A stretch of 64,000 nt of DNA from an uncultured Rikenellaceae bacterium (lineage in GTDB: Bacteria; Bacteroidota; Bacteroidia; Bacteroidales; VadinHA17). The translations under genes and the position numbers were made by a program. Shown in pieces: positions 2,254 to 28,657 of the stretch. The stretch lies in assembly GCA_964472085.1 (NCBI GenBank), contig CAYYIW010000014.1, forward strand, positions 21,734 through 85,733. The letters are read 5' to 3'. The first letter of the stretch is position 1, and each line of letters opens with the position of its first letter. The notes under the pieces are model-generated. The model saw only the letters and a program-made list of their open reading frames with translations. It was not told the origin of the DNA and made no database searches.

Positions 2254-2628
2254 ATGAATGTTCCTGAAGATTTATTTTACACAAAAGACCATGAATGGCT
2301 TCGCGTGGAAGGCGACATGGGTTATGTGGGTGTTACTGACTTTGCCCAGGGGGAACTTGGCGATATAGTATTTATTGAGATTGAAACAGTGGGCGAAACC
2401 CTTGGTAAAGAAGAAGTGCTTGGTACTATTGAAGCAGTTAAGACAGTTTCTGACATGTTCATGCCTGTAGGAGGAGAGGTAGTTGAAGTCAATCCTGCTC
2501 TTGCCGAAACACCCGATATTGTCAATAAGGACCCTTACGGTAAAGGCTGGATGGTGAAAATAAAAATTACCAATCCCGATGAGATTAAGGAACTTCTTTC
2601 ACCTGGCAAGTATAAGGCATTGCTTTAA
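2254..2628 (+). CDS. gcvH: Glycine cleavage system H protein
   Basis: Shows HEWLRVEG...GVTDFAQ and the lipoyl-lysine motif EAVKTVSD. The track ORF starts at TTG 2224; the ATG at 2254 (MNVPEDLFY) gives the usual ~124 aa. Confidence 0.92.
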   Translation: MNVPEDLFYTKDHEWLRVEGDMGYVGVTDFAQGELGDIVFIEIETVGETLGKEEVLGTIEAVKTVSDMFMPVGGEVVEVNPALAETPDIVNKDPYGKGWMVKIKITNPDEIKELLSPGKYKALL

Positions 2629-2661
2629 AAGATTTTAGCAGACTCTTTGCTGAGAATGGTC

Positions 2662-5600
2662 TCAGAGAGTTTTCTTGACTTCAAACTCCTGGTATCCTTC
2701 AATCACGTCTCCAACTTTGATGTCGTTGAAATTGTGGATGTTGAGTCCACATTCATATCCTGATGTAACTTCCTTGACATCATCTTTGAATCGTTTGAGA
2801 GATCCCAGTTCTCCTGTATAGATGACAATACCATCGCGTATTATCCTTACTTTGGTATTGCGGGTTATCTTACCCTCTTTGACATAGCAGCCTGCTACTG
2901 TTCCGACTTTGGTAACCTTGAATATGTCACGTATGTCAAGAGTGGCAACGATCTCCTCTTTAAGCTCAGGAGACAACATACCTTCCATGGCTGATCTTAT
3001 CTCCTCGATAGCATTATAGATAATCGAATAGAGTCTTACGTCAATTTCCTCTTTCTCGGCCAGTCTTCGGGCGCTAAGTGACGGACGTACCTGGAATCCG
3101 ACTATAATGGCATTCGATGCAGCGGCAAGAAGTATATCCGATTCAGATATCTGTCCGACTGCCTTATGGATAATATTAAGCTGTATTTCAGGTGTTGACA
3201 GTTTAATGAGAGAATCGCTGAGCGCTTCAACAGAACCATCAACGTCACCTTTGACAATTATATTGAGTTCCTGGAAGTTGCCAATAGCAATCCTTCTTCC
3301 AATCTCGTCAAGTGTAATATGCTTCTGAGTACGGAGACCCTGTTCTCTCTGTAGCTGTGCTCTTTTTGTGGCAATATCCTTGGCTTCCCTGTCACTCTCC
3401 ATCACGTTGAACTTATCACCTGCCTGTGGTGCACCATTGAGACCAAGTATTAGAGCAGGAGTTGCAGGGCCCACTTCCTTGACCTTATTCCCCCTTTCAT
3501 TATACATTGCTTTAACATGGCCGTAACAGCTTCCTGCGAGCATTATATCACCCACCCTCAGGGTTCCGGCTTTTACAAGCATCGTTGCTGTAAATCCTCT
3601 TCCCTTATCGAGAGAAGACTCTATAACAGTTCCAATGGCGGGTTTCTCAGGATTTGCCTTCAGGTCAAGCATTTCGGCTTCAAGAAGTATCTTATCAAGG
3701 AGTATGTCCATATTTAGACCTGTTTTGGCCGAAATCTCCTGCGACTGATACTTCCCACCCCAGTCTTCCACAAGATAATTCATCGCTGCCAGGGCTTCTT
3801 TGATCTTGTCCGGATTGGCTGTTGGCTTATCAATTTTATTTATTGCAAATATTATTGGTACACCGGCTGCAGACGCATGGTTAATAGCTTCCTTTGTCTG
3901 TGGCATCACTCCGTCGTCAGCTGCCACAACGATAATTGCAATGTCTGTTATCTGGGCACCTCGTGCACGCATAGCTGTAAATGCCTCATGGCCAGGAGTA
4001 TCGAGGAAAGTTATCTTGCGCCCGTCAGGGAGTACGACAGCATAGGCACCTATGTGCTGGGTAATACCACCGGCTTCACCGGCAATGACATTGGTATTTC
4101 GTATATAATCGAGCAATTTGGTTTTACCATGATCAACATGACCCATTACAGTAACAATAGGAGGTCTTGGTTGAAGATCTTCCTCCAGGTCTTCCTCTTC
4201 CTTAACGGCTTCCTGGAGTTCCGCACTTACAAATTCCATCCTGTATCCGAATTCATCAGCCAGTAACGACATTGTCTCAGCATCCAGACGCTGATTAATA
4301 GACACGAACAGGCCAAGGCTCATACATGTGGAAATGATATCTGTGACAGGTATGTTCATCATGGTAGCCAGTTCGTTGACCGATACGAACTCCGTAACCT
4401 TGAGAATATTCTTATCCTGTTCAAGCCTGTCAGCTTCCTCCTGGTTTTTCAGGTTGATAGCCTCTCTCTTTTCCCTTCTGTACCTCGAGCCTTTAGATTT
4501 CCCTTTTGTGGTAAGTCTTGCAAGGGTTTCCTTTATCTGTTTCTGTACTTCTTCTTCATCTACCTCAGTCCTTAAAGGTCGTTTTCTGGAAGTCTTTCTT
4601 CCTCCGGGTTTATCCTTTTTGTCGGTTGTCACAGGCTTAGCCCGCGAGACCTCGTCCCTTTCCTTGGTAATCCTTTTCCTTTTTTTCTTCCTCTTGAATT
4701 CCTGGTCAGCATTTACACGTACAGGTTGAGATGACTGTGATTTTTTCTTCTCTTCAGCCGGAAGATCAATCTTGCCCACAACTCGGGGACCGGAAAGTCT
4801 TTTAAAGTCTGTTTTATAAACGGAAACATTATTTTCATCCGTCTCGTCAGGGGTAATTTCCCCGGATTCTCTTTTTGCCGGTTTCTTTTCTTCTATATGG
4901 CCGGCTTTTTTTTCAGCAGCAGCTTCTTCAGTCTTTCCTTCAACCTGCTTCTCCTCTTTCCCGGCTTTGAGGGTATCTGTCTTATCTTTTTCAGCAGGCT
5001 GAGTCTTTGCTTTTTTTGCCTCTCCCTTTTTCTCACTGCCTTTCTGTGCTTCTTTTTCCTTGGCGTCGAGATCGATCTTACCAACAATATGAATGTCTAT
5101 GTTGGATTTGGATTTTTCAGCTTCCGATTCAGGAGCTGCTGATTCTGGTTCCTTATCACCGGTAGCTTTCTTGTCTTCTTTCTTTTCAGTTTCTTTCGGG
5201 GGGGCAGCCTTTTTCTTTTCGGGCTCTTCACTAACAGGAGCAGGCTTCTCAGGACTTGCCTTACCTGACTTTTCCAGGTCAATCTTTCCAACGAGCTTGA
5301 TGTCCGGTTTCTTAATCTCGGTTTTGATGTCAACAGTATTGGTGTACCCGGTAGTGTCCTTAACCAGTACATTTTCATCTTTCTCCAAATCCTCCGGCTC
5401 ATTCTTTTCCGAGATATCATCAATTGAAACGGTTTCCTTTTTTTTATGAAGGTCTTTAAGAATAAGTTTCTCAGATTCTTTCTTGACGCTGATATCTGTG
5501 CTATACTCTTTTACAAGAAGAATATAAGCTTCAGGAGGAAGCTTGGTATTTGGGTTTGGATCAAGATCGAACCCTTTCTTGTGAAGAAAGTCCACAATAG

Positions 5601-5667
5601 TGGATATTCCCACATTAAACTCGCGGGCTGCCTTACTTAATCTTGTAACCTTAATATCCTCTGTCAT
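2662..5667 (-). CDS. infB: Translation initiation factor IF-2
   Basis: 1001 aa with G-domain motifs [16 protein letters not shown] and NKIDK. It has a long Lys/Glu-rich N-terminal region and sits downstream of nusA. Confidence 0.97.
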
Positions 5668-5731
5668 AAATATGCTTTCCCTTAATTAAATTCTTAATGC
5701 TGGTCCCAGGGATGGATTATATCACCTTTTT

Positions 5732-6970
5732 TTACTCAAATTCAGCTTTCAGTATGTTGACAACTTCTCTTACTGTCTCCTCTTCAAGGTCAGTTCTCTT
5801 TACCAGGTCACTTATTGAGAGGTTAAGCACACTCCTTGCTGTGTCGCAGCCTATAGCTTTCAGCTCATCAATGATCCATCCGTCAATCTCATCGCTGAAT
5901 TCTTCCAGGTTAACATCTTCTTCATCTTCACCTCCCGGTTCCCTGTAAACGTCTATATCATAGCCTGTAAGCTGGCTTGCCAGCTTTATATTAAGTCCTC
6001 CCTTGCCGATAGCAAGTGATACTTCATTGGGTTTCAGATAGATCTCTGCCCTCATCTCTTCATCATCGAGTTTGATCGATGTTATTTTGGCCGGGCTCAG
6101 GGCTCTCTGTATAAACAACTGGTTATTTGATGTGTAATTTATTACATCTATGTTTTCATTCCTGAGCTCTCTTACAATACCATGTATCCTCGATCCTTTC
6201 ATCCCCACACATGCACCAACCGGATCGATCCTTTCATCATACGATTCAACGGCAACTTTAGCCCTTTCCCCCGGCACTCTGACGATCTTCTTAATGGTGA
6301 TAAGACCATCGAATATCTCAGGTACTTCAAGCTCGAACAGCCTTTCAAGGAAAACAGGCGAAGTACGGCTAAGGATGATGAATGGTGTGTTGTTCCTCAT
6401 CTCTACCTTTATAACGACCGCCCGCACAGAGTCGCCCTTGCGGAAGTGATCTGAAGGTATCTGTTCCCCCTTTGGCAATATAAGCTCGTTACCATCATCA
6501 TCAAGAACAAGGATCTCTCTCTTCCATACCTGGTAAACTTCACCAGTCACGATCTCACCTATCCTGTCCTTGTATTTGATATAAATATTATTCTTCTCAA
6601 GATCAAGTATCCTTGCGGTTAGATTTTGCCTAAGTGATAATATTGCTCTTCTTCCGAAATCAAGAAACTTAACCTCATCAGAGACTTCTTCCCCGACTTC
6701 ATAGTCTGCATCAATCTCTTTTGCCTTTGAAAGAGGTATCTGTATAACATCATCTTCGAAATCGGCATCATCCACCACAACCCTGTTTCTCCATATTTCG
6801 AAGTCCCCTTTGTCAATATTGACAATAATGTCAAAATTATCAGCCGATCCGTACTTCTTTGCAAGCATGCTTCTGAACACATCTTCCAGAACACTCATCA
6901 TAGTAGGCCTGTCAATATTCTTCAGCTCTTTAAACTCCGAAAAAGTGTCGATCAAATTAACATTTTCCAT
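5732..6970 (-). CDS. nusA: Transcription termination/antitermination factor NusA
   Basis: 412 aa with an S1-like segment (GEIVTGEVYQV) and a KH region (RAKVAVESYDERIDPVGACVGMKGSRI). It lies in the conserved rimP-nusA-infB order. Confidence 0.96.
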   Translation of the reverse strand: MENVNLIDTFSEFKELKNIDRPTMMSVLEDVFRSMLAKKYGSADNFDIIVNIDKGDFEIWRNRVVVDDADFEDDVIQIPLSKAKEIDADYEVGEEVSDEVKFLDFGRRAILSLRQNLTARILDLEKNNIYIKYKDRIGEIVTGEVYQVWKREILVLDDDGNELILPKGEQIPSDHFRKGDSVRAVVIKVEMRNNTPFIILSRTSPVFLERLFELEVPEIFDGLITIKKIVRVPGERAKVAVESYDERIDPVGACVGMKGSRIHGIVRELRNENIDVINYTSNNQLFIQRALSPAKITSIKLDDEEMRAEIYLKPNEVSLAIGKGGLNIKLASQLTGYDIDVYREPGGEDEEDVNLEEFSDEIDGWIIDELKAIGCDTARSVLNLSISDLVKRTDLEEETVREVVNILKAEFE

Positions 6971-6990
6971 CTGGTGTAAACCTCTTAAAA

Positions 6991-7443
6991 TTATTTAATT
7001 GTTATAACTATCCTGGTTGATTTAACATCCTCAAAATTAAAAGAAATATCTTTTATTTCTTTTGGTTTGCCTTTTGCTCTTATCTCCGTTGAAAGCTCAA
7101 ACCCTCCGTCTGTCACATTTTTTAATGTACCTTCAAACTTACTGCCCTCATGATCAGTTACTTCTACTTTCCTGCCCTCGTTCTTATAGTACTGTTCAAT
7201 AACCAGGAAAGGTGTATCAAGACCCGGTGATGATACCTGCAGTTCGAAATCCTCCCTGTCGCGGCCGAGGCTCATTTCCATCTGGCGATGCAGCGCGGCG
7301 CATTCGTCTATGGTAATTCCTTCATTTCTGTCAACCATGACTTTTATTCGTCCTGAACTGCTAACTTTAACAGATACCAGAAATAAGCCGGTTCCGTCAA
7401 TGAACCCCTCCACCATTTCTTCTATCTCCTTCTGCCCTGCCAT
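6991..7443 (-). CDS. rimP: Ribosome maturation factor RimP
   Basis: 150 aa with the VSSPGLD motif, immediately upstream of nusA on the same strand. Confidence 0.88.
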   Translation of the reverse strand: MAGQKEIEEMVEGFIDGTGLFLVSVKVSSSGRIKVMVDRNEGITIDECAALHRQMEMSLGRDREDFELQVSSPGLDTPFLVIEQYYKNEGRKVEVTDHEGSKFEGTLKNVTDGGFELSTEIRAKGKPKEIKDISFNFEDVKSTRIVITIK

Positions 7444-7451
7444 ATTATAAA

Positions 7452-7485
7452 AACTTATAATAAAATAGGGGACTATGGTCCCCTA
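7452..7485 (-). promoter_or_regulatory. Terminator-like hairpin in the rimP-nusA-infB leader (candidate attenuator)
   Basis: On the transcribed strand the sequence is TAGGGGAC-cata-GTCCCCTA (7485..7466) followed by TTTTATTATAAGTTTTT. It ends 22 nt before the rimP ATG. No upstream co-directional gene exists for it to terminate. Confidence 0.4.
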
Positions 7486-7512
7486 GGTATCAAACACCCC
7501 TCAATTCTGTGG

Positions 7513-7520
7513 CAAAGGTA
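7513..7520 (-). promoter_or_regulatory. Candidate Bacteroidota -7 box (TACCTTTG) for rimP operon
   Basis: The minus strand reads TACCTTTG, matching TAnnTTTG. A second match, TAATTTTG, lies at 7540..7547. Motif match only. Confidence 0.25.
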
Positions 7521-7664
7521 ATTATTATTATTTAAAAGCCAAAATTATTGAAATTAATATTACTATTTCAGGCTTGTGGCTCAAAGATGTAGCGGTATTT
7601 TGCGTAAAGATTCAGATATTTGCAGGCACATATATTTATTTTTTTAATACATGTTTTTTGGTTT

Positions 7665-8612
7665 ATGCCGTTACGTGACAAATCAATATACAGAGGGAAT
7701 GACAGGCTGTTGCTTGAAAACTGCACCCTTTGCCCACGGGAATGCGGGATCGACAGGTTTGAAGGAGGGTCGGGATATTGCGGGACAGATGGCGGATTCA
7801 ATATAGCATCAGTATGTGTTCACAGGGGAGAGGAACCGGTTATCAGCGGAAGTAATGGTATCTGTAACATATTCTTCCGGGGCTGCAATCTGCGTTGCAT
7901 CTATTGCCAGAACCATGAGATAAGCAGGGTAACTTTTGATGACAGGAGGGAACCGGATCTGGCAGTCATAATAGAACAGGTAACTGAAATACTCGAACAG
8001 GGTGTTACAGCAGTGGGTTTTGTATCACCATCGCACGTTGTCCCCCAGGTGAAAGTGATTATTGAAGCTCTGCATACTAAAGGATATGATCCTGTTATTG
8101 TTTATAATACAAATAGTTATGATAAGGTGGATACTATTGGAAGCCTTGAGGGGATGATTGATGTGTACCTGCCCGACATTAAATATGTTACGCCGCACAT
8201 TTCTGCTGAATATTCGGATGCATCAGATTATCCGGCTGTAGCCCTTAAAGCGGTAAAGGAAATGTATTATCAGAAAGGATCTACTCTCAGGACTGATGAC
8301 CGGGGAAGGGCGGAAAGCGGTCTTTTGATACGTCACCTTGTACTTCCCGGGCACTCTGAGGAAAGCAAGCTTGTTTTGAAGACAATTGCCGAAGAAATAT
8401 CGACAGGAGTGACGATTTCATTAATGTCACAATATCATCCAACGCCGCAGGTGATCAATCATTCAACCCTGGGCAGATCACTCTGCAGGGAAGAATATGA
8501 ATCTGTCGTTGAAACAATGGAGGACCTGGGTTTCAGGAACGGATGGACCCAGGATATGGACAGCTACCTTAATTACAGGCCCGATTTCAGCAGGGATCAT
8601 CCGTTTGAATAG
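7665..8612 (+). CDS. Radical SAM protein, PflX-like (pyruvate formate-lyase activase homologue family)
   Basis: Carries the CX3CX2C motif CNLRCIYCQN plus an N-terminal Cys cluster, CTLCPRECGIDR...GYCG. The track ORF starts at TTG 7620 with an implausible hydrophobic extension. The in-frame ATG at 7665 (MPLRDKSIY) is preferred. Confidence 0.82.
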   Translation: MPLRDKSIYRGNDRLLLENCTLCPRECGIDRFEGGSGYCGTDGGFNIASVCVHRGEEPVISGSNGICNIFFRGCNLRCIYCQNHEISRVTFDDRREPDLAVIIEQVTEILEQGVTAVGFVSPSHVVPQVKVIIEALHTKGYDPVIVYNTNSYDKVDTIGSLEGMIDVYLPDIKYVTPHISAEYSDASDYPAVALKAVKEMYYQKGSTLRTDDRGRAESGLLIRHLVLPGHSEESKLVLKTIAEEISTGVTISLMSQYHPTPQVINHSTLGRSLCREEYESVVETMEDLGFRNGWTQDMDSYLNYRPDFSRDHPFE

Positions 8613-8717
8613 CCTGGTGAATAGCTTATAAAGGGAACTTTTGATTATCAGAAGTCTACAGAACCCCCTTTAGGGCCAGGGGATGGGCCCAGGGCTTTTG
8701 AAGCGCATACTGCTTTA

Positions 8718-9434
8718 TCACATGAATTTTTCCCTTTTCTGAAGGTTGAACAGTGCAACAAGGAGAAACACGACTGACCCGGTGATCAGTATGATTCTGT
8801 TCTTAAGGGTTATTATTGCCCATGTTGTTTCATTGACATCATATGGTGGTTCATAAGGATTCAGGAATACATTCCACTGGCTCTTTTCCAGGGCATCGCT
8901 GAGAATAAGAAAGAACAAACCGAATATTATCATAACAACAGCAGTCCCGTTTCCGTTTCTTATGACTGTTGAAAGCATGAATGCCATCATACCCAGGAAA
9001 ATCACAGGCACCATGACCTGCGCTGCCACTTTTACAAACCGGAACTTAACAATGAGCACAGATGAAACGAAGGTGAAAGCGATCATTATGAGGAAAGCGA
9101 TTGTAAAAATCAGTATGATCCTGACCAGCCACACTTTGTATCTGTAGTTTGGGATGCCGAACAATATTTCAATTGTCCTTGCATCCTGATCATTCTGAAT
9201 ACCAAAAACAGACGGATAAAACACAAGGAGAAGCCCTGAAAACAGGAATACACCATAGAGGTCATTAACTCTTGAAATGTCCGTTGAAAAGACGTAAATA
9301 ACCGACAATCCCAGGTAAAAGGCCACCGAACCTGCAAGGAACCAGATGAAACGGTTTGCAAAAATGATCCTCAGGTTGTAAATGATCATCCTGTATATCA
9401 GGTTAATGGTATTAAGTAGTCCGTTTGTCTTCAT
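8718..9434 (-). CDS. ABC-2-type transporter permease (multi-TM, 238 aa)
   Basis: About six hydrophobic segments and no soluble domain. Its start overlaps the end of the preceding NBD-containing ORF by 23 nt, which suggests translational coupling. Confidence 0.7.
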   Translation of the reverse strand: MKTNGLLNTINLIYRMIIYNLRIIFANRFIWFLAGSVAFYLGLSVIYVFSTDISRVNDLYGVFLFSGLLLVFYPSVFGIQNDQDARTIEILFGIPNYRYKVWLVRIILIFTIAFLIMIAFTFVSSVLIVKFRFVKVAAQVMVPVIFLGMMAFMLSTVIRNGNGTAVVMIIFGLFFLILSDALEKSQWNVFLNPYEPPYDVNETTWAIITLKNRIILITGSVVFLLVALFNLQKREKFM

Positions 9435-12400
9435 TTTTTAAAGAATTGTTATTGTCAGTCCCGGAATTATTATGTTTCCTCAGAAGCCAGAGATATGCAT
9501 CTTCAAGGTTGGGACTTGCCTGTACTGCTCCTTCCCACGGGGAAAACTCCGACACTACTCTTACCCTTACGTTATTACCTTCCGACATATGGTGCACTAC
9601 AAGATGACTTTCCACGAATTCGTTAAATGAATCAGCTGGTATATTGAACTGCCATACATGTCCCTCTGCTTCATGAGTCATATCGATGGGTTTCCCGAGA
9701 TATCTCAGCTTTCCTTTATTCATTACAGCAACCTGGTTGCATGAGCTGGATATATCCTCAATTATATGAGTTGAAAATATCACAACTCTTTCACGACTGA
9801 GTTCGACAAGAAGATTCCTGAATCTTATCCTCTCTCTTGGATCCAGTCCTGCAGTAGGCTCATCGACCACGAGTATCCTTGGCAGATGTAACAGTATCTG
9901 GGCAATACCCATCCTTTGTTTCATACCTCCGGAGAAAGAGCTTATCCTTTCATGCCTCCTGTCTTCCATATGCACTGCTTTCAGTACATATGTGACCCTT
10001 TCTTCCCTTACCTCCCGATCTGTAATATTCTTAAGCATCGCCTGGTAATGAAGATAATCGTTTGCTGTCATATTCTCATAGCTTCCGAACTCCTGTGGCA
10101 GGTAACCGATCAGTCCCTGAAGCTCTTCCCTCATTTTCTGTGTATCAAGACCATTTATCCATACCTTGCCATAACTCTGCTCCAGGATCCCGCATATTAT
10201 TCTCATAAGGGTTGTCTTCCCGGCCCCGTTTGGTCCTAGCAGTCCGAACATACCATTGCCAATATTAATAGTTACACAGCTAAGGGCTTTAAACGGTTTT
10301 TTCTTTCTTCCGATAAGAGGAACGGCAGCAACTAACTTGTATATAGCTTTTCTTATTCTCCTGAATCTGCCTTCCAGCCGGTAAATATCGGTATTTTCCC
10401 TTGTAAGCTTCTGCCCGGTTTTATAGATAAACAGACCTGCAAACCACAGGAAGCCAAGCATTAGTACAACAACAATGTTATTCCATCTGAGCTGATACCA
10501 GGCAAGGTTAAGAAAAGGTATTATCCAGAAGATGACAAAATCTGTTAGTCCGGTAATCCTTCGCAACCATTTACTCTCCTTGTCTCTGTTCAGATTCGCG
10601 ATCAGGTCCCTGAAAACAGTCCACATACCTGAAAGTGCAAACCATGTAAGAATGCTGAAGAAAAAGATCCAGAATCCCTTGTTCAGGTAAAAATATGTGA
10701 AGTATATCATATACCCCAGTAAAGGTACCTGCCACATGAACTGGTCAAGGTCTTTCCATGATGTAAGATCTTTCCGGAGTCCAAGCCTCTTCCTTATTCT
10801 CGCTCCTGCTTCCCATTCTCTCTTCCACCGGTTTTCCCTTTCATAGATCTTAACAAGACTCTGTATATAAATATTTATAGGTTCATCTTTACCTATAACA
10901 GTCTCCCTGGCTTTTCTCAGGCTGTTTATAACGAACCATGTTGATGCAGGAATAATTATAACAGACAGAATCGTTGTTATGAGCTTCCACAGGAACTTAT
11001 CTATGTAGGTATATATAAGGAAGATCATAAAACCGAACAGGATGAACTGTATCAGTTTTGTCTTCCAGTTCAGGGCATAAAACCATTTAAGAGCTGTTTC
11101 AAGACCTGTATAGAAGGTGGGTATGAATACCAGGGTAAGCAGTGTGCTGAGTGCCAGTCCGCCGATCACCGTAATTGCAAATGAAGCACCAATGGCTGAA
11201 ACGTATTCAGTTGTTCCCATAGCCAGGGGAACCATGGCTATTATGGTAGTGGTAGCTGTTATCAATATCGGCCTGATCCTTGAAACACCTGCTGTCATCA
11301 GTGCCCGGTGCATACGGTATCCTCTCCTTCGCAGGATGTTTGTGTAATCGATCAATATTATACCATTATTGACAACCACACCAAGCAGGATAAGAAAACC
11401 CGTAAGAGTATTGGCGTTAAGCAATGAGTTACCGGTAAGTATCAGGGCTATCAGGGAACCAAGGGCCGCAAGTGGTATGCTGAACATAAGGACTATCGGT
11501 GTGGCCATCGATTCAAAGACTGCAGCCAGGATCATATATATTAGCAGAAAAGCGACGCCGATAAGGTAATAAAAATCCTTGAGTGTATCTTCTTCATGTA
11601 CCACCTCAACGGCGATACCAGGAGGGATATTAAGGCCGGCTACTATCGATTCAACGTCCATCCTGGCTCCTGCAAGCAGATCCTTTGAATTGTTAATGTC
11701 GTCGTTAAAGCTGTAAGTTACGGTTACCCTTTTCTCCTGGTTTTCCCGGTGAATATTTCCCATTCCTGATGAAAAAACGATTTTGGAGAGTTCCTGCATC
11801 TCCATCACTGATCCGTTACTTCCTGTTACCTCCAGGTGTTTCAGATCGTCGATCGTCTTATCCTGGTTCCCATTGGTGTTGATGGTATCACCGGCATATT
11901 TGATCATTATATCGTATGTCTCATTTCCCTGTTTATAAGTCGCTCCTGATGAGTATTCACGGCCAAAAGTGGAAAGAGCTGAAGCGAGGTTACCAAGGGT
12001 CATATTATTCCTGCCTATGTAATCCATATCGAATTGTAGCTGGACCTCCGGATTATTATCCTGGACATTAACACTGGAACTGCTAATTGATGACATGTTA
12101 TCGAGATATGATTTAATGTCGTCTGCCAGGTTCTTCATCTGGGAAAAGTTCTGTCCCTTGATTATTATGCTCTCCCTTTGTGAGCCGATACCCAGGAGAT
12201 TCAGAAAATCTGATCCCGGATTATAAGTATCATTGCTACCACCACCTCCACCTGTGAATCCGCCGCTTGAGGTCAGTTCATCCATGCTTATTTCAGCTGA
12301 TGATATGTTCTTGACCTTCTCGGATATATCATTTTTGATCTCCGGGAGCGTCCTTTTGCTCTTTTTATCCCAGTCTTTTGCCAGGTTAACTGTTACGGTG

Positions 12401-14202
12401 GCCTTGTCTTCTTCAATCTTACTTATAATATCTTCCTTCTCCGGTATTGATTTGAGTCGTGATTCTATTTCAGAAACAACGGCATCAGTCTTTTCAAGTG
12501 TTGAGCCTCCTGGCATTGTAACAGAAAGCCTGAAATTAGGGGTCTGGACCTCCTGTGTTGAGTTGATGCTCAGGGTTAGACTGATAAGCAAAGCCGCAAA
12601 GAAAACCACCAGCGTCCCAATGATAGTACCTGCAGGGTTTCTCATACTTGATTTAAGTATAAGATGATAAGCCTGGATAAGCCTGTCGTGAATAGAGAGT
12701 TTCTTAAAAATTCCGGAGTTGCTGTATGACGACCTGCTGAGCAGATAATAGGTAGCCATTGGAATCAACAGCAACGCTACCGAGAGAGAGATGAGTAAGG
12801 TGGAAATGATTGACACACCAATGTTTTTCCCAATGATCCTTACCATAAAATTGGAGGAGAAAATAAAAGGAAGGAATACTATTATTGTGGTCAGGGTAGC
12901 TGCGAAAATGGATCTCCACACTTCACTTGTTCCCTGTTTTACTGCAATATCGGGTTTATTACCCTGACCCGCCAGCCGGTATATATTTTCCAGCACCACC
13001 ACAGAATTATCGACAAGCATTCCGACTGCCAATGCCATCCCAACAAGGGTAAGGCTGTTTATAGAAACATTGAAGGCATAGAACAGGTTGAATGCGGTAT
13101 AGACGGATACCGGGATAGATATAGCGATTATCGTTACAAGGCGGATATTCCGGAGAAAGAACCAGAGTATAAGTATAGCCAGTATACCACCTGTTATTGC
13201 CAGTTGTATGATCTGGTTAATATTATTTTCCATTATCGCCGCATTGTTGTTTTGAACAACTATGCTAATACCTGACGAAGCAAGTTTTTTATTCAGTGCT
13301 GCAACTTCCGCCAGGGCTTTATGCGACAGGTCAATCAGGTTTGCCTGGTTGTCATTTACCAGGCTGATAGTCACAGCATCAAGCCCGTTAACCCTGCTGT
13401 ATGACGTTTGCTGTTTTACACCAAAAAAGATCTGGGCAATATCCATTAATAGTACAGGTCCCTTTTGTTTTACGACGATATTACCGATATCCCTTACATC
13501 GGTATAATCGGATACAACATTAACGAAGTATTTATTGCTACCATCAACAACCCTTCCAACGAATGCTTTACTTGCACCGTTGTTATTCAGCAGGGCCCTT
13601 ATCTGGCCCATAGATATACCGTTTGCCCTGCAGGCTCTTTCGTTAAGTCTTACCTCAATAGAGTTCTCCTGGCCACCATAGACCTGTACTCCTGCTATAC
13701 CGTCAATGTTCTCAAGATCAGGTGTTATTTCCCTGTCGGCGAAGTTTCTTATCCTGTCTACGCCTCCTTCGCCTCGTACCTGTAGCTCCATAAACTGGTT
13801 GGTGAGCTGCTGCAGGTCTATCTTGATCACGTTCACAACGAATTCTGAAGGGAGAGTGCCCTTCACGGCATCTATTTTTTCCTGTAGCTTAAGGTTGGCA
13901 TATTTGAGATCAGCGTTCTGATTATAGTATATCATTATTATCCCGTACTGGGAGGTAATATTTGATTCGATCTTCTCTATCCCTTCCAGTGTACCTATTG
14001 CTCCTTCCAGTGGTATGACAGCCTGGTTTTCTATATACGCGGGATCCACTTCCAGCGGAGTTGCAACCTGTACAATGAGTGTTGGCAGCTCGGCATTAGG
14101 GAAAAGTTCGACTGACAACTTCTTATACGACACATAACCGAGCATGGTGAGCCCCAGGAAGAGCATGCTTATAAAGATCCTTCTTTTTAAAATGAAATTC
14201 AT
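9412..14202 (-). CDS. Fusion protein: RND (AcrB-like) efflux permease + 2 extra TM + ABC-transporter ATPase with internal membrane insertion
   Basis: 1596-aa uninterrupted ORF. Residues 1-~1040 parallel the neighbouring 1041-aa RND (for example GMLVDNSVVVLENI in TM4). The C-terminal part has Walker A GPNGAGKT (10210..10236), signature FSGGMKQR and Walker B ILVVDEPTAGLD. That part is paralogous to the ATPase at 23523..24416. Confidence 0.85.
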   Translation of the reverse strand: MNFILKRRIFISMLFLGLTMLGYVSYKKLSVELFPNAELPTLIVQVATPLEVDPAYIENQAVIPLEGAIGTLEGIEKIESNITSQYGIIMIYYNQNADLKYANLKLQEKIDAVKGTLPSEFVVNVIKIDLQQLTNQFMELQVRGEGGVDRIRNFADREITPDLENIDGIAGVQVYGGQENSIEVRLNERACRANGISMGQIRALLNNNGASKAFVGRVVDGSNKYFVNVVSDYTDVRDIGNIVVKQKGPVLLMDIAQIFFGVKQQTSYSRVNGLDAVTISLVNDNQANLIDLSHKALAEVAALNKKLASSGISIVVQNNNAAIMENNINQIIQLAITGGILAILILWFFLRNIRLVTIIAISIPVSVYTAFNLFYAFNVSINSLTLVGMALAVGMLVDNSVVVLENIYRLAGQGNKPDIAVKQGTSEVWRSIFAATLTTIIVFLPFIFSSNFMVRIIGKNIGVSIISTLLISLSVALLLIPMATYYLLSRSSYSNSGIFKKLSIHDRLIQAYHLILKSSMRNPAGTIIGTLVVFFAALLISLTLSINSTQEVQTPNFRLSVTMPGGSTLEKTDAVVSEIESRLKSIPEKEDIISKIEEDKATVTVNLAKDWDKKSKRTLPEIKNDISEKVKNISSAEISMDELTSSGGFTGGGGGSNDTYNPGSDFLNLLGIGSQRESIIIKGQNFSQMKNLADDIKSYLDNMSSISSSSVNVQDNNPEVQLQFDMDYIGRNNMTLGNLASALSTFGREYSSGATYKQGNETYDIMIKYAGDTINTNGNQDKTIDDLKHLEVTGSNGSVMEMQELSKIVFSSGMGNIHRENQEKRVTVTYSFNDDINNSKDLLAGARMDVESIVAGLNIPPGIAVEVVHEEDTLKDFYYLIGVAFLLIYMILAAVFESMATPIVLMFSIPLAALGSLIALILTGNSLLNANTLTGFLILLGVVVNNGIILIDYTNILRRRGYRMHRALMTAGVSRIRPILITATTTIIAMVPLAMGTTEYVSAIGASFAITVIGGLALSTLLTLVFIPTFYTGLETALKWFYALNWKTKLIQFILFGFMIFLIYTYIDKFLWKLITTILSVIIIPASTWFVINSLRKARETVIGKDEPINIYIQSLVKIYERENRWKREWEAGARIRKRLGLRKDLTSWKDLDQFMWQVPLLGYMIYFTYFYLNKGFWIFFFSILTWFALSGMWTVFRDLIANLNRDKESKWLRRITGLTDFVIFWIIPFLNLAWYQLRWNNIVVVLMLGFLWFAGLFIYKTGQKLTRENTDIYRLEGRFRRIRKAIYKLVAAVPLIGRKKKPFKALSCVTINIGNGMFGLLGPNGAGKTTLMRIICGILEQSYGKVWINGLDTQKMREELQGLIGYLPQEFGSYENMTANDYLHYQAMLKNITDREVREERVTYVLKAVHMEDRRHERISSFSGGMKQRMGIAQILLHLPRILVVDEPTAGLDPRERIRFRNLLVELSRERVVIFSTHIIEDISSSCNQVAVMNKGKLRYLGKPIDMTHEAEGHVWQFNIPADSFNEFVESHLVVHHMSEGNNVRVRVVSEFSPWEGAVQASPNLEDAYLWLLRKHNNSGTDNNNSLKNEDKRTT

Positions 14203-14230: not shown

Positions 14231-17200
14231 CTATGTTGTTTTACCGGTTCGTGTCAGCCACTTGCTGAAGCTGTCAAAGACCCAGTATACACAGGGTATT
14301 ACTACCAGTGTAAGCAGTGTGGATGATATCATACCACCAATGACGGCCAGGGCCATAGGTGACCTCAGCGAAGCACTCTCCCCGAATCCAATTGTAAGCG
14401 GGAGCAGAGCCAGGATGGTTGTCAGGCTGGTCATCAAAATGGGCCTGATCCTCTGGCTGCCTGCCATAACAATGGCCTCCTTCCTGTTCATACCCGATTC
14501 TCTTAACTGGTTAATACGGTCTATAAGAATGATGGCATTATTGACCGCTATACCTCCCAGCATTATTATTCCTATATATGCCATCATATTAAGAGACTTG
14601 TGGAGGATGAAGAAAGTCAGCACTGTACCTACTCCTGCAAGAGGAATGGTAAGCATGATAATGAACGGCTGGATAAGCGATTCAAACTGTGCTGCCAGAA
14701 CCATGAATACCAGTATCAACGAGAGCGTAAGAGCAAAGGTAAGGTTCTTCATAGATTCCTCCCTTTTGAGCTCTTCACCTGTAAATCCCATTTTATAATC
14801 CACAGGCATAACAACCGGTTTAAGCAACTGCCTGGCTTCCTTAATGATCTTGTCAAAGGGAGTTTTATTATCGACCATTGCATATATATAGCATGTCCTT
14901 GCCTGGTTCCTTCGTGTAATTTCCATGGGGGTCAACACAGTTTTTATGTTTGCCAGTTCGCTGAGAGGAACCTTAACACTCCCTGCGGTAATAAGAAGAT
15001 CTCGAAGCTGGTTTATTGAGATGTCCCCAAGCTTAATGGTTATGTCGGTCATCTCACCGTCTCTCTCAAAGCTTCCTGCTGATGCTCCTTCCAGGTAACT
15101 CTTTACCTGGCTTATTATGCTCTCCACGGTTACGTTATAATAGCTGGTCTTAAACCTGTCAATATCAATGTCAACCTCGGGGGTGCCTTCGTCCAGTGAG
15201 GTAGTAATATTTTTCAGATCGGGATCTTTAATAAGGATGTCCTTAGACTGGGCCACCAGCTTTTCCAGCTCGGAATAATCCTTGCCCGAAATCTCCAGGG
15301 TAAATGGCGCCTCATCAGTTCCCAGCGTTGACTGCAGTGCCGTTTCTTCCCTTTTGAAGCTTACTTCCATATCGGGGACCGTTTTCAGGTAATTGCTTAC
15401 CAGGGTGATTGCATTCTCCGTTCCGGAAGCGAAATCTTTGGCCAGTATCACCTTCATCGATGCGGTATTTTCGCCAGTAATTTCTCCGTTCTCATCAGCT
15501 GTGGCAGTATTATCGGCCCCTGCCTGGCAATAGATCAGTCTGACCTTGTTGCCCAGCAACTCCCTGATCACATTCTCCGATTCAATGACAGTGCTCTCTG
15601 TTCGTGCAAGACTTGTTCCTTCGGGGAGCTTAATGTCAATAGTAAATTCAGCCGACTCGGACCTTGGCATGAATTCGCTGCCCAGCATCGGAATCAGAAG
15701 AGCTGTTGCACCCATAAGGACAATTGCCAGGATGATCACCAGCTTTCTTCTATCAATGATCTTTTCAAGCAAGGGAGGATACCATGTGAAATGAACAGCA
15801 TTATCGATCCTTGCCTTACTTTTTTTATCTCCGAATAATGTTGAAACCAGCATCGGGATAACAAGCATTGCAACGAACAGGGAAGAGATTAGTGCAAAGG
15901 CAACAGTCCAGGCCTGGTCCTTGAACATTTCACCGGAAGCCCCGTGCAGGTATACAATAGGAAGAAAAACAACTATGGTGGTTATGGTTGATGCTGTAAT
16001 AGCACCACCAACTTCACCGGTGCCTTTTATGACAGCATCTTTCAGAGTCATCCCTTCCTCACGGTTTCGTGTTATGTTCTCAAGTACTACAATTGCATTG
16101 TCGACAAGCATTCCCGCACCTAGAGCCAGCCCACCAAGTGTCATTATGTTCAGGGTAAGATGATCGAAATACATAAGGTTGAACGTAGCAATTATCGACA
16201 CCGGAATAGCCACACTTATGACGAATGTAGTGCCTATTCGCCTCAGGAAGATATATATAACAAACACTGCCAGTATTATACCTATAATAAGCGTGTTGGT
16301 GACTTCATTTATAGCGCTATGGATATAGCTGCCCTGGTCCTCCACCCTTATAAATTCATAGCCAGGCAGAGCCTTTTCCAGGTCGTTGATTTCAGTCTCC
16401 AGGCTCTTTACGGCATCAACAGTGTTGTACTTGGGCTCTTTATAGATTGATAAGCCAATGCATCTTTCGCCATTTACGGTTACAATATTGACCGGATCCT
16501 TATTCTCATATTTTATGGTAGCCACATCCTTGAGGTATACGGGAACTCTGCCGGATATCTGAGCTGTCTGAGTGGCGGTTTGTGATGAGGAGGAAGAAGC
16601 TGAGGATGGCTCCTTAAAACCTACTATAATGTTGCGCAGATCGTTAATGTCTTTCAGAACGCTGACACCCTTGACCACATATTTCAGGCCCATATCCACG
16701 ATGGAACCACCGGACACATTACGATTATAATTACTTATCTGGGCAGCGATGGCATCAGTTGTAAGACCGTAAGATTCGAGAATGTATTTGTTGGTCTCTA
16801 TCACTACTTCGCTCTCTTCAACTCCTGATAACCTGACATCGGCAATACCTTCTATTCTTACCAGTTCATTCCTGATATAGTTTTCAGCTACCTTCCTGAC
16901 CTCATCAAGGTTGGAAATGTTCCTGTTCCTCAATCCAATGATCATCACAGGTGATGCATTGGGGTCATACTGGGATAGTGTCAGATCATCAAGGTCAGAA
17001 TTCTGACGGAATGAGTTCAGCTCTTTCTGAAGATCAAGGAAAGCTTCATCCATATCCTTATTCCAGTCATATTCAACTGTTATGGTAGCAGCACCTACCT
17101 GTGAGACGGATGATACCTGGACAACGCCATTCTGGCGCATGGAAAGTGATTCAATCTGTTCGACGTAATTCTTTTCTATCTCTTCAGGAGGTCTTTCTCC

Positions 17201-17356
17201 TGCCTTTAGTTCAATATAGATCTTGGGATTATTAAGATCGGGGAACAGATCGGTACCTAGTTTCCCGAATGAGATAAATCCCAGGAGGATAATCCCAAGT
17301 ACGAACATTAAGACTGTAACCGGGTATTTTACGGCAAAACGGGCAATACTGTTCAT
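14231..17356 (-). CDS. RND efflux transporter permease (AcrB/HAE-type)
   Basis: 1041 aa with 12-TM/two-large-loop organisation and the TM4 motif GAGMLVDNAIVVLENI. Confidence 0.93.
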   Translation of the reverse strand: MNSIARFAVKYPVTVLMFVLGIILLGFISFGKLGTDLFPDLNNPKIYIELKAGERPPEEIEKNYVEQIESLSMRQNGVVQVSSVSQVGAATITVEYDWNKDMDEAFLDLQKELNSFRQNSDLDDLTLSQYDPNASPVMIIGLRNRNISNLDEVRKVAENYIRNELVRIEGIADVRLSGVEESEVVIETNKYILESYGLTTDAIAAQISNYNRNVSGGSIVDMGLKYVVKGVSVLKDINDLRNIIVGFKEPSSASSSSSQTATQTAQISGRVPVYLKDVATIKYENKDPVNIVTVNGERCIGLSIYKEPKYNTVDAVKSLETEINDLEKALPGYEFIRVEDQGSYIHSAINEVTNTLIIGIILAVFVIYIFLRRIGTTFVISVAIPVSIIATFNLMYFDHLTLNIMTLGGLALGAGMLVDNAIVVLENITRNREEGMTLKDAVIKGTGEVGGAITASTITTIVVFLPIVYLHGASGEMFKDQAWTVAFALISSLFVAMLVIPMLVSTLFGDKKSKARIDNAVHFTWYPPLLEKIIDRRKLVIILAIVLMGATALLIPMLGSEFMPRSESAEFTIDIKLPEGTSLARTESTVIESENVIRELLGNKVRLIYCQAGADNTATADENGEITGENTASMKVILAKDFASGTENAITLVSNYLKTVPDMEVSFKREETALQSTLGTDEAPFTLEISGKDYSELEKLVAQSKDILIKDPDLKNITTSLDEGTPEVDIDIDRFKTSYYNVTVESIISQVKSYLEGASAGSFERDGEMTDITIKLGDISINQLRDLLITAGSVKVPLSELANIKTVLTPMEITRRNQARTCYIYAMVDNKTPFDKIIKEARQLLKPVVMPVDYKMGFTGEELKREESMKNLTFALTLSLILVFMVLAAQFESLIQPFIIMLTIPLAGVGTVLTFFILHKSLNMMAYIGIIMLGGIAVNNAIILIDRINQLRESGMNRKEAIVMAGSQRIRPILMTSLTTILALLPLTIGFGESASLRSPMALAVIGGMISSTLLTLVVIPCVYWVFDSFSKWLTRTGKTT

Positions 17357-19911: not shown

Positions 19912-20069
19912 ACGTAAATAATTATTTTTAATGGACGTATGGAACCCGCATGTATACTTAATTCTTTTCATCAGTGTTTGTGTAATGCTTACATGTGGGT
20001 TTCATATAAGTTGTTTTATTCTTTATCCTGTATTCTTTTTTATTAAGTTATCAGATTATTGTCTTCTAT

Positions 20070-26078: not shown

Positions 26079-26094
26079 TTTAAAATATTGTCAA

Positions 26095-27132: not shown

Positions 27133-27253
27133 TCTTTCAGCACGTTCGGAATGAAAAGCATTGTTTTAAATTTAGTTAAAAGATAAATTTCTGGATTGTT
27201 CGAAAAATTTTTATTTTTTTTGTACCCGGAATTTAACTTAATACCTGATATTA

Positions 27254-28648: not shown

Positions 28649-28657
28649 TAACAGTTA

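What the first reader, a model, noticed from the sequence alone, without database searches (positions are those of the whole stretch)
9412..14202. One 1596-aa ORF covalently fuses a complete RND (AcrB-like) permease to an ABC-transporter ATPase
Residues 1 to ~1040 are colinear with the adjacent stand-alone 1041-aa RND pump, that is, a full 12-TM permease. The same frame then continues with no stop through two extra hydrophobic helices (res ~1049-1092, about 10927..11058) into an ABC nucleotide-binding domain. That domain has a beta-1 strand INIYIQSLVKIYE, Walker A GPNGAGKT (10210..10236), signature FSGGMKQR and Walker B ILVVDEPTAGLD. It is clearly paralogous to the separate ATPase at 23523..24416, sharing GMFGLLGPNGAGK..LMRI and LGYLPQ(D/E)F. 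RND pumps are proton-motive-force driven and ABC pumps are ATP driven. I do not know of a described architecture that joins both energy modules in one polypeptide. The 3' end overlaps an ABC-2 permease gene by 23 nt. This suggests the tethered NBD powers that permease while physically attached to the RND trimer.
Basis: partly seen in the sequence, partly recalled or inferred. Interest (0 to 1): 0.75.

Follow-up and report, generated by a model that had tools for sequence, protein, structure and literature searches.

The report
RND pump fused to ABC ATPase
A single 1596-residue protein that joins a complete proton-driven RND efflux pump to an ATP-driven ABC motor is real, is conserved in several bacterial phyla inside a fixed seven-gene operon, and no paper I could search describes it.

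Summary
ORF 9412..14202 (-) encodes a full RND permease (Pfam ACR_tran, residues 2-1032) joined to a canonical ABC ATPase (core 1303-1575). It is not an assembly artefact. More than 120 protein clusters and over 20 species genomes, including cultured Prolixibacter, Draconibacterium, Parabacteroides massiliensis and Marivirga, carry the same uninterrupted protein. There are no gaps across the junction, and the junction is under purifying selection.

The linker holds six extra membrane helices, not two. The ATPase itself is split: its first strand and A-loop tyrosine (1109-1121) lie 203 residues before Walker A, separated by a four-helix membrane insertion. A shorter variant of about 1440 aa, without extra helices, occurs in Omnitrophota, Sumerlaeota and other phyla.

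The gene always sits with a second RND, an adaptor, an outer-membrane channel, a second ATPase and two ABC-2 permeases. One of those permeases carries an inactive M1-peptidase-like domain.

Most likely this is a hard-wired two-stage efflux machine. An ABC-2 exporter moves substrate across or out of the inner membrane and hands it to an RND pair that expels it. That mechanism is inferred, not shown. No literature on the architecture was found, and databases name it generically.

The parts
9412..14202 (-). Whole fusion gene (1596 aa): RND permease, then 2 TM, then NBD strand beta-1 with the A-loop, then 4 TM, then the NBD core
   Evidence: ORF list and translation; Pfam ACR_tran plus ABC_tran; over 120 full-length homologue clusters of 1566-1606 aa
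11101..14202 (-). RND module, residues 1-1034 (12 TM and two periplasmic loops). Proton-relay positions relative to AcrB/MexB: D407=D398, D408->N399, K940->N945, R971=R975, T978=T982
   Evidence: ACR_tran 2-1032; best solved relative is MdtB 9lyq_B; TM4, TM10 and TM11 alignments to MexB, MdtB and ZneA; positions invariant across the family
10927..11055 (-). Extra helices TM13 (1050-1068) and TM14 (1074-1092), a hairpin that returns the chain to the cytoplasm
   Evidence: Hydropathy; AlphaFold helices 1046-1066 and 1070-1099; absent in the short variant L025/L027
10840..10878 (-). Displaced NBD strand beta-1 with the A-loop tyrosine (INIYIQSLVKIYE, 1109-1121; Tyr1120), followed by the conserved R..REW helix
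   Evidence: Resembles the N-terminus KIEILGLNKIYPNG of the free ATPase. I1111 and K1118 are invariant and Y1120 nearly invariant. An HMM built from 49 free ABC-2-type ATPase N-termini hits this same position in 15 of 15 diverse fusions, scoring up to 13.2 bits against a maximum of 7.3 in 3000 shuffles. The AlphaFold strand 1111-1120 has pLDDT about 92
10423..10749 (-). Four-helix membrane insertion (TM15-TM18, 1152-1260) inside the NBD, between beta-1 and beta-2
   Evidence: Hydropathy and charge distribution; AlphaFold helices; no Pfam or PDB match; least conserved segment, at 0.62 identity, but with no gaps
10282..10395 (-). Conserved basic segment before beta-2 (NTDIYRLEGRFRRIRKAIYKLVAAVPLIGRKKKPFKAL, 1270-1307)
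   Evidence: Conserved motif NINI.R..GR...R+..Y....P.IGKKK.PFKAL in diverse members
9478..10296 (-). NBD core (1303-1575): Walker A, Q-loop, signature, Walker B with catalytic Glu, H-loop, and a DrrA-type C-terminal domain
   Evidence: ABC_tran; best NCBIfam matches are GldA and DrrA, both below cutoff; 41% identity to the free ATPase; all catalytic residues invariant; Foldseek best hits are TM_1403, NosF and ABCA NBDs
8718..9434 (-). 238-aa six-helix membrane protein, probably an ABC-2-type permease; overlaps the fusion by 23 nt
   Evidence: Always follows the fusion in the long-linker type (Bacteroidota and Latescibacterota); in the short-linker variant the small permease follows the free ATPase instead. 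hhalign to the Pfam-positive ABC-2 permease of L025/L027 gives probability 83%, E 9e-6, 178 columns. It has no Pfam hit itself
14231..17356 (-). Second, unfused RND permease (1041 aa), the likely heterotrimer partner
   Evidence: ACR_tran E 7.5e-219; always immediately upstream of the fusion in the long-linker type; in the short-linker variant L025/L027 the large permease lies between them
17362..18414 (-). Periplasmic adaptor (MFP, 350 aa)
   Evidence: HlyD_D23 and HlyD_3; conserved synteny
18427..19971 (-). Outer-membrane factor (TolC-like, 514 aa)
   Evidence: OEP E 2.4e-50; conserved synteny
20070..23507 (-). 1145-aa protein: N-terminal ABC-2-type permease, a periplasmic M1-peptidase-like domain without HEXXH, and a Golvesin_C domain
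   Evidence: Golvesin_C. Among orthologues, 13 of 15 hit Golvesin_C, 9 of 15 Peptidase_M1 and 5 of 15 ABC2_membrane_2. No HEXXH or GxMEN motif in any
23523..24416 (-). Free ABC ATPase (297 aa), paralogue of the fused NBD and first gene of the operon
   Evidence: ABC_tran E 7e-32; 41% identity to the fused NBD; conserved synteny

Best explanation
The gene encodes a genuine 18-helix membrane protein. A complete RND permease is covalently followed by an ABC-2/DrrA-type ATPase whose own fold is interrupted by a four-helix membrane insertion. It is the centrepiece of a conserved seven-gene envelope machine made of a free ATPase, a large ABC-2 permease with an inactive M1-like periplasmic domain, an outer-membrane channel, an adaptor, a plain RND, the RND-NBD fusion and a small ABC-2 permease. 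My proposed mechanism is inferred. The two ATPases and two ABC-2 permeases form an ATP-driven exporter or flippase. It moves substrate from the cytoplasm or inner leaflet to the outer leaflet or periplasm. There the physically tethered RND heterotrimer (plain RND plus fused RND) captures it and expels it through the adaptor and outer-membrane channel using the proton gradient. This would be a hard-wired version of the two-step 'supplier to RND' efflux relay. A heterotrimer carrying one or two fused protomers would resolve the mismatch between a trimeric RND and a dimeric ABC. The existence, conservation, topology, split NBD and operon are shown. The complex, stoichiometry, energy use and substrate are inferred.
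For: The fusion is real and selected for. Over 120 clusters at 77-97% identity all measure 1566-1606 aa and carry both domains. Species genomes from Bacteroidales, Marinilabiliales, Cytophagales and Latescibacterota carry it, including cultured strains and complete genomes. A second family of about 1410-1470 aa occurs in Omnitrophota, Hinthialibacter and BRC1/Sumerlaeota. There are no gaps at the junction, and pN is far below pS. The NBD looks catalytically competent: every motif is invariant, and it is the best-conserved part at 0.89 identity. The topology places the NBD in the cytoplasm. The NBD is split but complete: the beta-1/A-loop motif is found in 15 of 15 diverse members and is modelled as a confident strand. 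The component set is constant even where gene order is shuffled and the NBD-permease adjacency is swapped, which argues for one functional unit. Both permeases are ABC-2 type. The RND pair resembles MdtB/MdtC, and MdtBC is known to work as a B2C heterotrimer (established knowledge). Shuster et al. 2016 (PMC4822809) showed functional supplier-to-AcrAB-TolC cooperation and postulated direct physical interaction.
Against: There is no experimental data on any member. No structure or co-purification shows that the ABC and RND parts contact each other beyond the tether. The substrate is unknown. The 238-aa permease is assigned to ABC-2 only by a moderate profile match (probability 83%). I could not inspect the AlphaFold coordinates, so pairing of beta-1 with the NBD sheet rests on the secondary-structure call and its confidence. 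The RND modules lack two canonical AcrB relay residues (D408->N, K940->N), so proton coupling is assumed rather than demonstrated. A heteromeric ABC is inferred only from co-conservation and swapped adjacency. Two separate homodimeric ABC transporters remain possible.
Confidence: 0.55

Rival explanations
1. Co-expression tether only. The fusion is real, but the RND pump and the ABC transporter work independently on unrelated steps or substrates. Fusion merely guarantees equal dosage or co-localisation.
For: Nothing found here demonstrates mechanistic coupling. The extra helices are dispensable, since the short variant lacks them. The linker is the least conserved part.
Against: The fusion and the full seven-part gene set persist across at least five phyla, with RND identity down to 26-36%. 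Apart from one unresolved 2.4-kb contig, no unfused orthologous locus was seen. Dosage matching would not explain a trimer-dimer pairing or the co-conserved second ATPase and second permease.
Confidence: 0.25
2. ATP-driven or ATP-gated RND. The fused NBD, dimerising with the free ATPase or with a second protomer, drives or gates the conformational cycle of the RND itself through the extra helices. This would replace or supplement proton coupling.
For: Both RND paralogues invariantly carry Asn where AcrB has the essential D408 and K940. The NBD is the most conserved segment. The chain passes directly from RND TM12 into the NBD-bearing region.
Against: D407, R971 and T978 equivalents are retained and invariant. 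Other proton-driven RNDs such as ZneA also lack the DD/K pattern. Two ABC-2 permeases that would normally be the NBD's partners are always present. In the short variant the NBD hangs on a soluble linker with no helices to transmit force.
Confidence: 0.12
3. Artefact. A missed stop codon, frameshift or chimeric assembly joined two neighbouring genes.
For: The window is a single unverified sequence. One 2.4-kb contig (L082) shows an in-frame stop 14 codons upstream of the called start, near the RND-linker boundary.
Against: The same continuous ORF appears in hundreds of independent assemblies from NCBI, JGI, ENA and Logan, and in isolate genomes: Prolixibacter bellariivorans WP_025863973.1, Draconibacterium orientale WP_038558060.1 and Parabacteroides massiliensis WP_075966940.1. 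There are no gaps at the junction, and selection is purifying in this frame.
Confidence: 0.01

Closest known systems
MdtABC (MdtB2C heterotrimeric RND pump of E. coli) and other paired-RND operons
   Same: Two tandem RND paralogues sit in one operon with a single adaptor. MdtB is the best solved relative (9lyq_B). The MdtB/MuxB and MdtC NCBIfam models match, but far below their cutoffs.
   Different: No Mdt protein carries an ATPase or extra helices. Scores are far below the equivalog cutoffs (260 and 254 bits against 1584 and 1774). The relay residues differ (DN/N instead of DD/K).
ABC-2 / DrrA-type (type V) exporters with separate NBD and six-helix permease, e.g. DrrAB, NosDFY, GldAFG and the ABCA family
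   Same: The NBD sequence and fold class match. It has the C-terminal domain ending in an LEDAYL motif. The neighbouring six-helix permeases carry the D..LEIL..P..R motif.
   Different: In known members the NBD is a free soluble protein, or is fused to its own permease, and its beta-1 to beta-2 hairpin is contiguous. Here it is fused behind an RND and split by four helices. GldA and DrrA scores are below cutoff (169.5 against 402.6, and 158.2 against 312.45).
MacAB-TolC and YbhGFSR (ABC transporters that use an adaptor, plus TolC in the case of MacAB)
   Same: An ATPase-driven inner-membrane component sits in an operon with an MFP and an outer-membrane factor.
   Different: MacB has a four-helix FtsX-type fold with its own periplasmic domain, and no such domain is found here. 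Neither system contains an RND.
Functional two-step efflux between single-component inner-membrane pumps and AcrAB-TolC (Shuster et al. 2016, PMC4822809)
   Same: The logic I propose is the same: a cytoplasm-to-periplasm supplier feeds a periplasm-to-outside RND pump. The authors postulated close physical interaction.
   Different: There the partners are separate proteins with no demonstrated contact. Here they are one polypeptide.
CFTR NBD1 regulatory insertion (recalled from memory, not tested here)
   Same: An insertion sits at the same permissive site, between NBD strands beta-1 and beta-2.
   Different: It is about 30 soluble, disordered residues, against about 187 residues with four membrane helices here, or about 65 soluble residues in the short variant.
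'ABC transporter permease / M1 family aminopeptidase' fusion proteins (database annotation class; TCDB 'peptidase-fused uncharacterised ABC2' families recalled from memory)
   Same: The operon's 1145-aa protein has this architecture.
   Different: The catalytic HEXXH is absent in all 15 orthologues examined. This class is itself uncharacterised.

Membership tests
RND permease (Pfam ACR_tran, HAE-type) | Full-length 12-helix architecture with two large periplasmic loops | tested here: met
   ACR_tran 2-1032 covers profile positions 3-1018 of 1021, E 2e-158; colinear with the neighbouring RND
RND permease (Pfam ACR_tran, HAE-type) | AcrB-type proton relay (D407, D408, K940, R971, T978) | tested here: inconclusive
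   D398, R975 and T982 are present and invariant. D408->N399 and K940->N945 are invariant substitutions, and the unfused paralogue carries them too. Other proton-driven RNDs such as ZneA also deviate.
RND permease (Pfam ACR_tran, HAE-type) | Operon with a periplasmic adaptor and an outer-membrane factor | tested here: met
   MFP at 17362..18414 and OMF at 18427..19971; conserved in over 20 loci
RND permease (Pfam ACR_tran, HAE-type) | Trimeric assembly and proton-driven transport | not testable with these tools
   Requires a structure or biochemistry
ABC ATPase (ABC_tran; ABC-2/DrrA subfamily) | Walker A, Q-loop, signature, Walker B with catalytic Glu, D-loop and H-loop | tested here: met
   All are present and invariant across 15 diverse members
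ABC ATPase (ABC_tran; ABC-2/DrrA subfamily) | Contiguous domain with the A-loop aromatic residue about 25 residues before Walker A | tested here: not met
   Tyr1120 lies 203 residues before Walker A, against 23 in the free paralogue. The Pfam and NCBIfam matches start at profile positions 13 and 16. The missing strand is supplied from across the insertion.
ABC ATPase (ABC_tran; ABC-2/DrrA subfamily) | Adjacent ABC-2 type permease partner | tested here: met
   The 238-aa gene matches by hhalign at E 9e-6. The large permease orthologues hit ABC2_membrane_2 and ABC2_membrane_3.
GldA (gliding-motility ABC ATPase, TIGR03522) | Score above the equivalog cutoff | tested here: not met
   169.5 bits against a cutoff of 402.6; the free ATPase scores 191.5
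MdtBC-type heteromeric RND | Two tandem RND paralogues served by one adaptor | tested here: met
MdtBC-type heteromeric RND | Equivalog-level similarity to MdtB/MdtC, and 2:1 heterotrimer stoichiometry | tested here: not met
   260 and 254 bits against cutoffs of 1584 and 1774. Stoichiometry is not testable.
MacB-type tripartite ABC pump | FtsX/MacB four-helix permease with a periplasmic domain, fused to the NBD | tested here: not met
   No FtsX or MacB_PCD hit in any operon protein

The most novel reading that the evidence does not exclude
The fused ATPase does not merely ride along. ATP binding and hydrolysis directly drive or gate the RND transport cycle, giving a dual-energised or ATP-powered RND pump. 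This would fit the invariant loss of the AcrB-essential D408 and K940 in both RND paralogues. The split NBD and its membrane insertion would act as the force-transmitting element.
Probability: 0.12. Interest if true: 0.95.

Novelty: new variant of a known kind. Interest (0 to 1): 0.77.

Why it matters
RND and ABC pumps are treated as separate energetic classes of efflux machinery. A covalent union of the two, conserved across at least five phyla, acts as a natural 'Rosetta stone'. It implies that the two classes can operate as one physical unit.

It makes an open question directly testable: do inner-membrane 'supplier' transporters physically dock onto RND tripartite pumps? Shuster et al. 2016 (PMC4822809) raised this explicitly. 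Cultured hosts are available for the test, including Draconibacterium, Prolixibacter, Maribellus and Parabacteroides massiliensis.

It also poses a symmetry puzzle, a trimer joined to a dimer, and offers a possible solution through a paired RND heterotrimer. It shows as well that an ABC nucleotide-binding domain can tolerate a four-helix membrane insertion between its first two strands.

Practically, these proteins are named only 'efflux RND transporter permease subunit' or 'ABC transporter ATP-binding protein' in RefSeq. Their architecture is therefore invisible to anyone who reads annotations.

Tried and rejected
- **First AlphaFold run:** I modelled residues 1030-1596 with 27 close homologues. 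Mean pLDDT was 52.6, which is unusable. A rerun with diverse members reached 81.1.
- **Model coordinates:** They are not exposed, so I could not measure strand pairing directly.
- **Foldseek on the model:** It returned only NBD hits and nothing for the membrane insertion.
- **Linker searches:** The linker alone found nothing in Pfam. The linker profile found nothing significant in PDB sequences (best E 0.059).
- **Genome scan with a linker-only alignment:** I used the full-length alignment instead.
- **The 238-aa permease in Pfam:** It gave no hit. BLASTP against the large permease was only E 0.027.
- **Candidate split form P0142 (526 aa):** It lies on a 2.4-kb contig with an in-frame stop 14 codons upstream. 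This cannot be told apart from a sequencing error.
- **Promoter and terminator scan:** It did not differ from shuffled sequence, and it uses a sigma-70 consensus unsuited to Bacteroidota.
- **Literature:** Six full-text searches, and a term search in the main 2021 review of tripartite pumps (only its first 300,000 characters are held), found no description of an RND-ABC fusion.
- **GldA identity:** Considered and rejected because the score is below cutoff.


Full report
**1. The observation**

The window contains a 1596-codon ORF at 9412..14202 on the minus strand. Pfam places a full-length AcrB-type RND domain at residues 2-1032 (E 2e-158, covering profile positions 3-1018 of 1021). It places an ABC ATPase domain at 1318-1451 (E 3e-27).

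The RND part aligns end to end with the neighbouring 1041-aa RND (28% identity). The ATPase part is 41% identical to the free ATPase at 23523..24416. Walker A, the Q-loop, the signature, Walker B and the H-loop are all canonical. The gene overlaps the next one (8718..9434) by 23 nt.

**2. Not an artefact**

- A search of 5.8 billion proteins returned at least 120 clusters at 77-97% identity. Every one is 1566-1606 aa and carries both Pfam domains. They come from independent NCBI, JGI, ENA and Logan assemblies.
- Across these 120 there is not one gap between residues 1035 and 1575. Identity is 0.80 in the RND, 0.62-0.79 in the linker and 0.89 in the ATPase.
- Against five orthologues, non-synonymous differences across the junction are 0.09-0.31, while synonymous sites are saturated at 0.72-0.86.
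- A scan of one genome per species found the full-length fusion in Prolixibacter bellariivorans, Draconibacterium mangrovi, Parabacteroides massiliensis and Marivirga tractuosa (a complete genome). It also found it in MAGs of Marinilabiliaceae, Rikenellaceae, Proteiniphilum, Bacteroidaceae, Carboxylicivirga and Breznakibacter, and in Candidatus Latescibacterota.
- RefSeq holds these proteins under generic names, for example WP_025863973.1, WP_038558060.1 and WP_075966940.1, all called 'efflux RND transporter permease subunit'.

**3.

The linker (1035-1302) has six hydrophobic helices, not two. The charge distribution fits three hairpins with every long loop in the cytoplasm: 39 K/R inside against 4 outside. 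An even number of helices puts the ATPase in the cytoplasm, as required.

More striking is the position of the segment INIYIQSLVKIYE (1109-1121). It lies between TM14 and TM15, while the rest of the ATPase starts at about 1303. The Pfam and NCBIfam ATPase matches begin only at profile positions 13 and 16. The core domain therefore lacks its first strand and its A-loop aromatic residue.

Three lines of evidence indicate that the displaced segment supplies them.

- It resembles the N-terminus of the free paralogue, KIEILGLNKIYPNG. I1111 and K1118 are invariant and Y1120 nearly invariant in 15 members whose RND identity falls to 33%.
- I built an HMM from the N-termini of 49 free ABC-2-type ATPases. 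Its best hit falls at exactly this position in 15 of 15 diverse fusions. Scores reach 13.2 bits, against a maximum of 7.3 in 3000 shuffled linkers. The window's own copy scores only -2.4 bits, although its best hit falls at the same position.
- An AlphaFold model built with a diverse alignment (mean pLDDT 81.1, pTM 0.66) makes 1111-1120 a ten-residue beta strand with pLDDT about 92. It is followed by an amphipathic helix, four long helices, and then strands 1304-1314 and 1317-1322 leading into Walker A.

I could not inspect the coordinates. Pairing of this strand with the ATPase sheet is therefore inferred, from the fact that the ATPase contains the only other strands in the model.

The A-loop tyrosine is 203 residues from Walker A, against 23 in the free paralogue. 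The linker matches nothing in Pfam or in PDB sequences.

**4. Family size and a second variant**

Searching 1.84 billion representative proteins with the linker alone gave only 102 hits. About 14 are full-length proteins of 1550-1585 aa, and most of the rest are fragments.

Two unclassified genomes (L025, L027) carry a fusion of 1437-1438 aa at 26-29% identity. Its linker has no extra helices. After TM12 come a short basic segment and the strand LVIVTKNLTRIY. A soluble insert of about 65 residues follows, and then strand 2 and Walker A.

A protein search with this variant returned about 34 clusters of roughly 1410-1470 aa (two are truncated fragments), including Candidatus Omnitrophota, Hinthialibacter and BRC1/Sumerlaeota. 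The long Bacteroidota type followed in the list. All 120 listed hits carry both domains.

The fusion itself and an insertion between strands 1 and 2 are therefore the constant features. The six helices are a lineage-specific elaboration.

**5. Genomic context**

In the window the gene is sixth of seven closely spaced minus-strand genes. Gaps run from a 23-nt overlap to 98 nt.

| Gene | Coordinates | Role |
|---|---|---|
| 1 | 23523..24416 | free ATPase |
| 2 | 20070..23507 | 1145-aa membrane protein |
| 3 | 18427..19971 | TolC-like outer-membrane factor |
| 4 | 17362..18414 | adaptor (MFP) |
| 5 | 14231..17356 | plain RND |
| 6 | 9412..14202 | RND-NBD fusion |
| 7 | 8718..9434 | 238-aa six-helix protein |

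The same set in the same order occurs in every Bacteroidota locus with enough flanking sequence. The Latescibacterota locus keeps the set and order but shows no outer-membrane factor in the fetched stretch.

Orthologues of the 1145-aa protein hit Golvesin_C (13 of 15), Peptidase_M1 (9 of 15) and ABC2_membrane_2 (5 of 15). None has HEXXH or GxMEN. It is therefore an ABC-2 permease carrying an inactive M1-like periplasmic domain.

The 238-aa protein has no Pfam hit itself. Its family aligns to the Pfam-positive ABC-2 permease of L025/L027 at hhalign probability 83%, E 9e-6, over 178 columns, and shares the D..LEIL..P..R motif.

In L025/L027 the same seven components are present in a different order: adaptor, ATPase, small permease, plain RND, large permease, fusion, outer-membrane factor. 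There the fusion adjoins the large permease and the free ATPase adjoins the small one, the reverse of the Bacteroidota arrangement.

**6. Mechanism**

*Shown:* a selected covalent RND-ATPase protein with a cytoplasmic, motif-complete ATPase, always accompanied by a second RND, one adaptor, usually one outer-membrane factor, a second ATPase and two ABC-2 permeases.

*Inferred:* these parts form one machine.

The most economical model is a two-stage relay. An ABC-2 (type V) exporter or flippase is probably heteromeric, given the co-conservation and the swapped adjacency. It delivers substrate to the outer leaflet or periplasm. The tethered RND then takes it up, as RND pumps typically do (established knowledge), and expels it through the adaptor and channel.

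This matches the functional 'supplier to AcrAB-TolC' cooperation shown in E. coli. For that system direct physical contact was postulated but left open (PMC4822809).

The paired RND genes resemble MdtB/MdtC, and MdtBC functions as a 2:1 heterotrimer (established knowledge). A heterotrimer with one or two fused protomers would present one or two ATPase domains. This would remove the trimer-dimer mismatch. I put about 0.55 on this model as a whole and about 0.99 on the fusion being real.

**7. Rivals**

- A pure co-expression tether without mechanistic coupling cannot be excluded (0.25).
- An ATP-driven or ATP-gated RND is the most novel reading (0.12). Both RND paralogues invariantly have Asn at the AcrB D408 and K940 positions. 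However, D407, R971 and T978 equivalents are kept, and proton-driven ZneA also deviates. Dedicated ABC-2 permeases are always present, and the short variant has no helices to transmit force.
- An assembly artefact is excluded in practice (0.01).

**8. Comparison with what is known**

The parts belong to known families: an HAE-type RND, a DrrA/ABC-2-type ATPase, an MFP and an OMF. The combination does not.

- It fails the equivalog cutoffs for GldA, DrrA, MdtB and MdtC.
- It has no MacB/FtsX domain.
- It violates the contiguity of the ABC domain.

Six full-text literature searches, and a term search of the held part (the first 300,000 characters) of the major 2021 review of tripartite systems, found no mention of an RND-ABC fusion. 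JGI's automatic dual name, 'AcrB/ABC-type ... ATPase subunit', shows that pipelines see both domains, but nobody appears to have commented on it. TCDB could not be consulted.

**9. Verdict**

This is a real, widespread, uncharacterised architecture. I class it as a new variant of tripartite efflux systems. It would become a new category if direct energetic coupling is demonstrated. Interest 0.77.

Noticed in passing
window 20070..23507 (-): The 1145-aa operon protein is an ABC-2-type permease fused to a periplasmic M1-aminopeptidase-like domain and a Golvesin_C domain. None of the 15 orthologues has the HEXXH or GxMEN catalytic motifs, so the peptidase fold is probably a non-catalytic binding module.
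   Followed up: partly
window 12985..13023 and 11347..11382 (-); also the plain RND at 14231..17356: Both RND paralogues carry Asn at the positions of AcrB D408 and K940 (VDN and VNN instead of VDD and AKN). This is invariant across the family, while the D407, R971 and T978 equivalents are kept. Whether this subfamily is still proton-coupled is open.
   Followed up: partly
window 9412..14202 (-), residues about 643-667; window 20070..23507 (-): There are glycine-rich low-complexity loops. One is in the periplasmic part of the fused RND (SSGGFTGGGGGSNDTYNPG). Others are in the large permease (GGFGRGGGQ...RGGGGGR and RRGGRGGPGGPG). The RND loop is partly conserved in the family consensus (F.GGG.G).
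   Followed up: no
L082:1-130 (2.4-kb contig of GCA_028748505.1): In one short contig an in-frame stop lies 14 codons upstream of the called start, close to the RND-linker boundary. The called 526-aa protein starts at TM13. This is either a genuine split form or a sequencing error.
   Followed up: partly
L020 (Marivirga tractuosa strain ac6), 2449..5779 and 8509..11680: The large permease and the plain RND each appear as two consecutive ORFs, while the fusion is intact at 1566 aa. These may be frameshifts or pseudogenes in this strain, or assembly errors. L013 and L017 (MAGs) show similar fragmentation of several operon genes.
   Followed up: no
window 2662..8612 and 24825..29431: The operon lies between rimP-nusA-infB with a radical-SAM gene on one side and, divergently, an HD-domain gene followed by lpxD, lpxC-fabZ and lpxA on the other. 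The rimP-nusA-infB side is conserved in the 84%-identical locus L001. Whether the lipid A neighbourhood is conserved could not be checked, because the fetched loci end at the operon.
   Followed up: partly
L001:3626-4009: The closest fetched genomic locus (84% identical fusion) has an extra 127-aa gene without a Pfam hit between the large permease and the outer-membrane factor. The window has only a 98-nt gap at that place.
   Followed up: no
P0332: One RND plus ABC fusion homologue is 1859 aa, about 290 residues longer than the rest. The extra segment was not examined.
   Followed up: no
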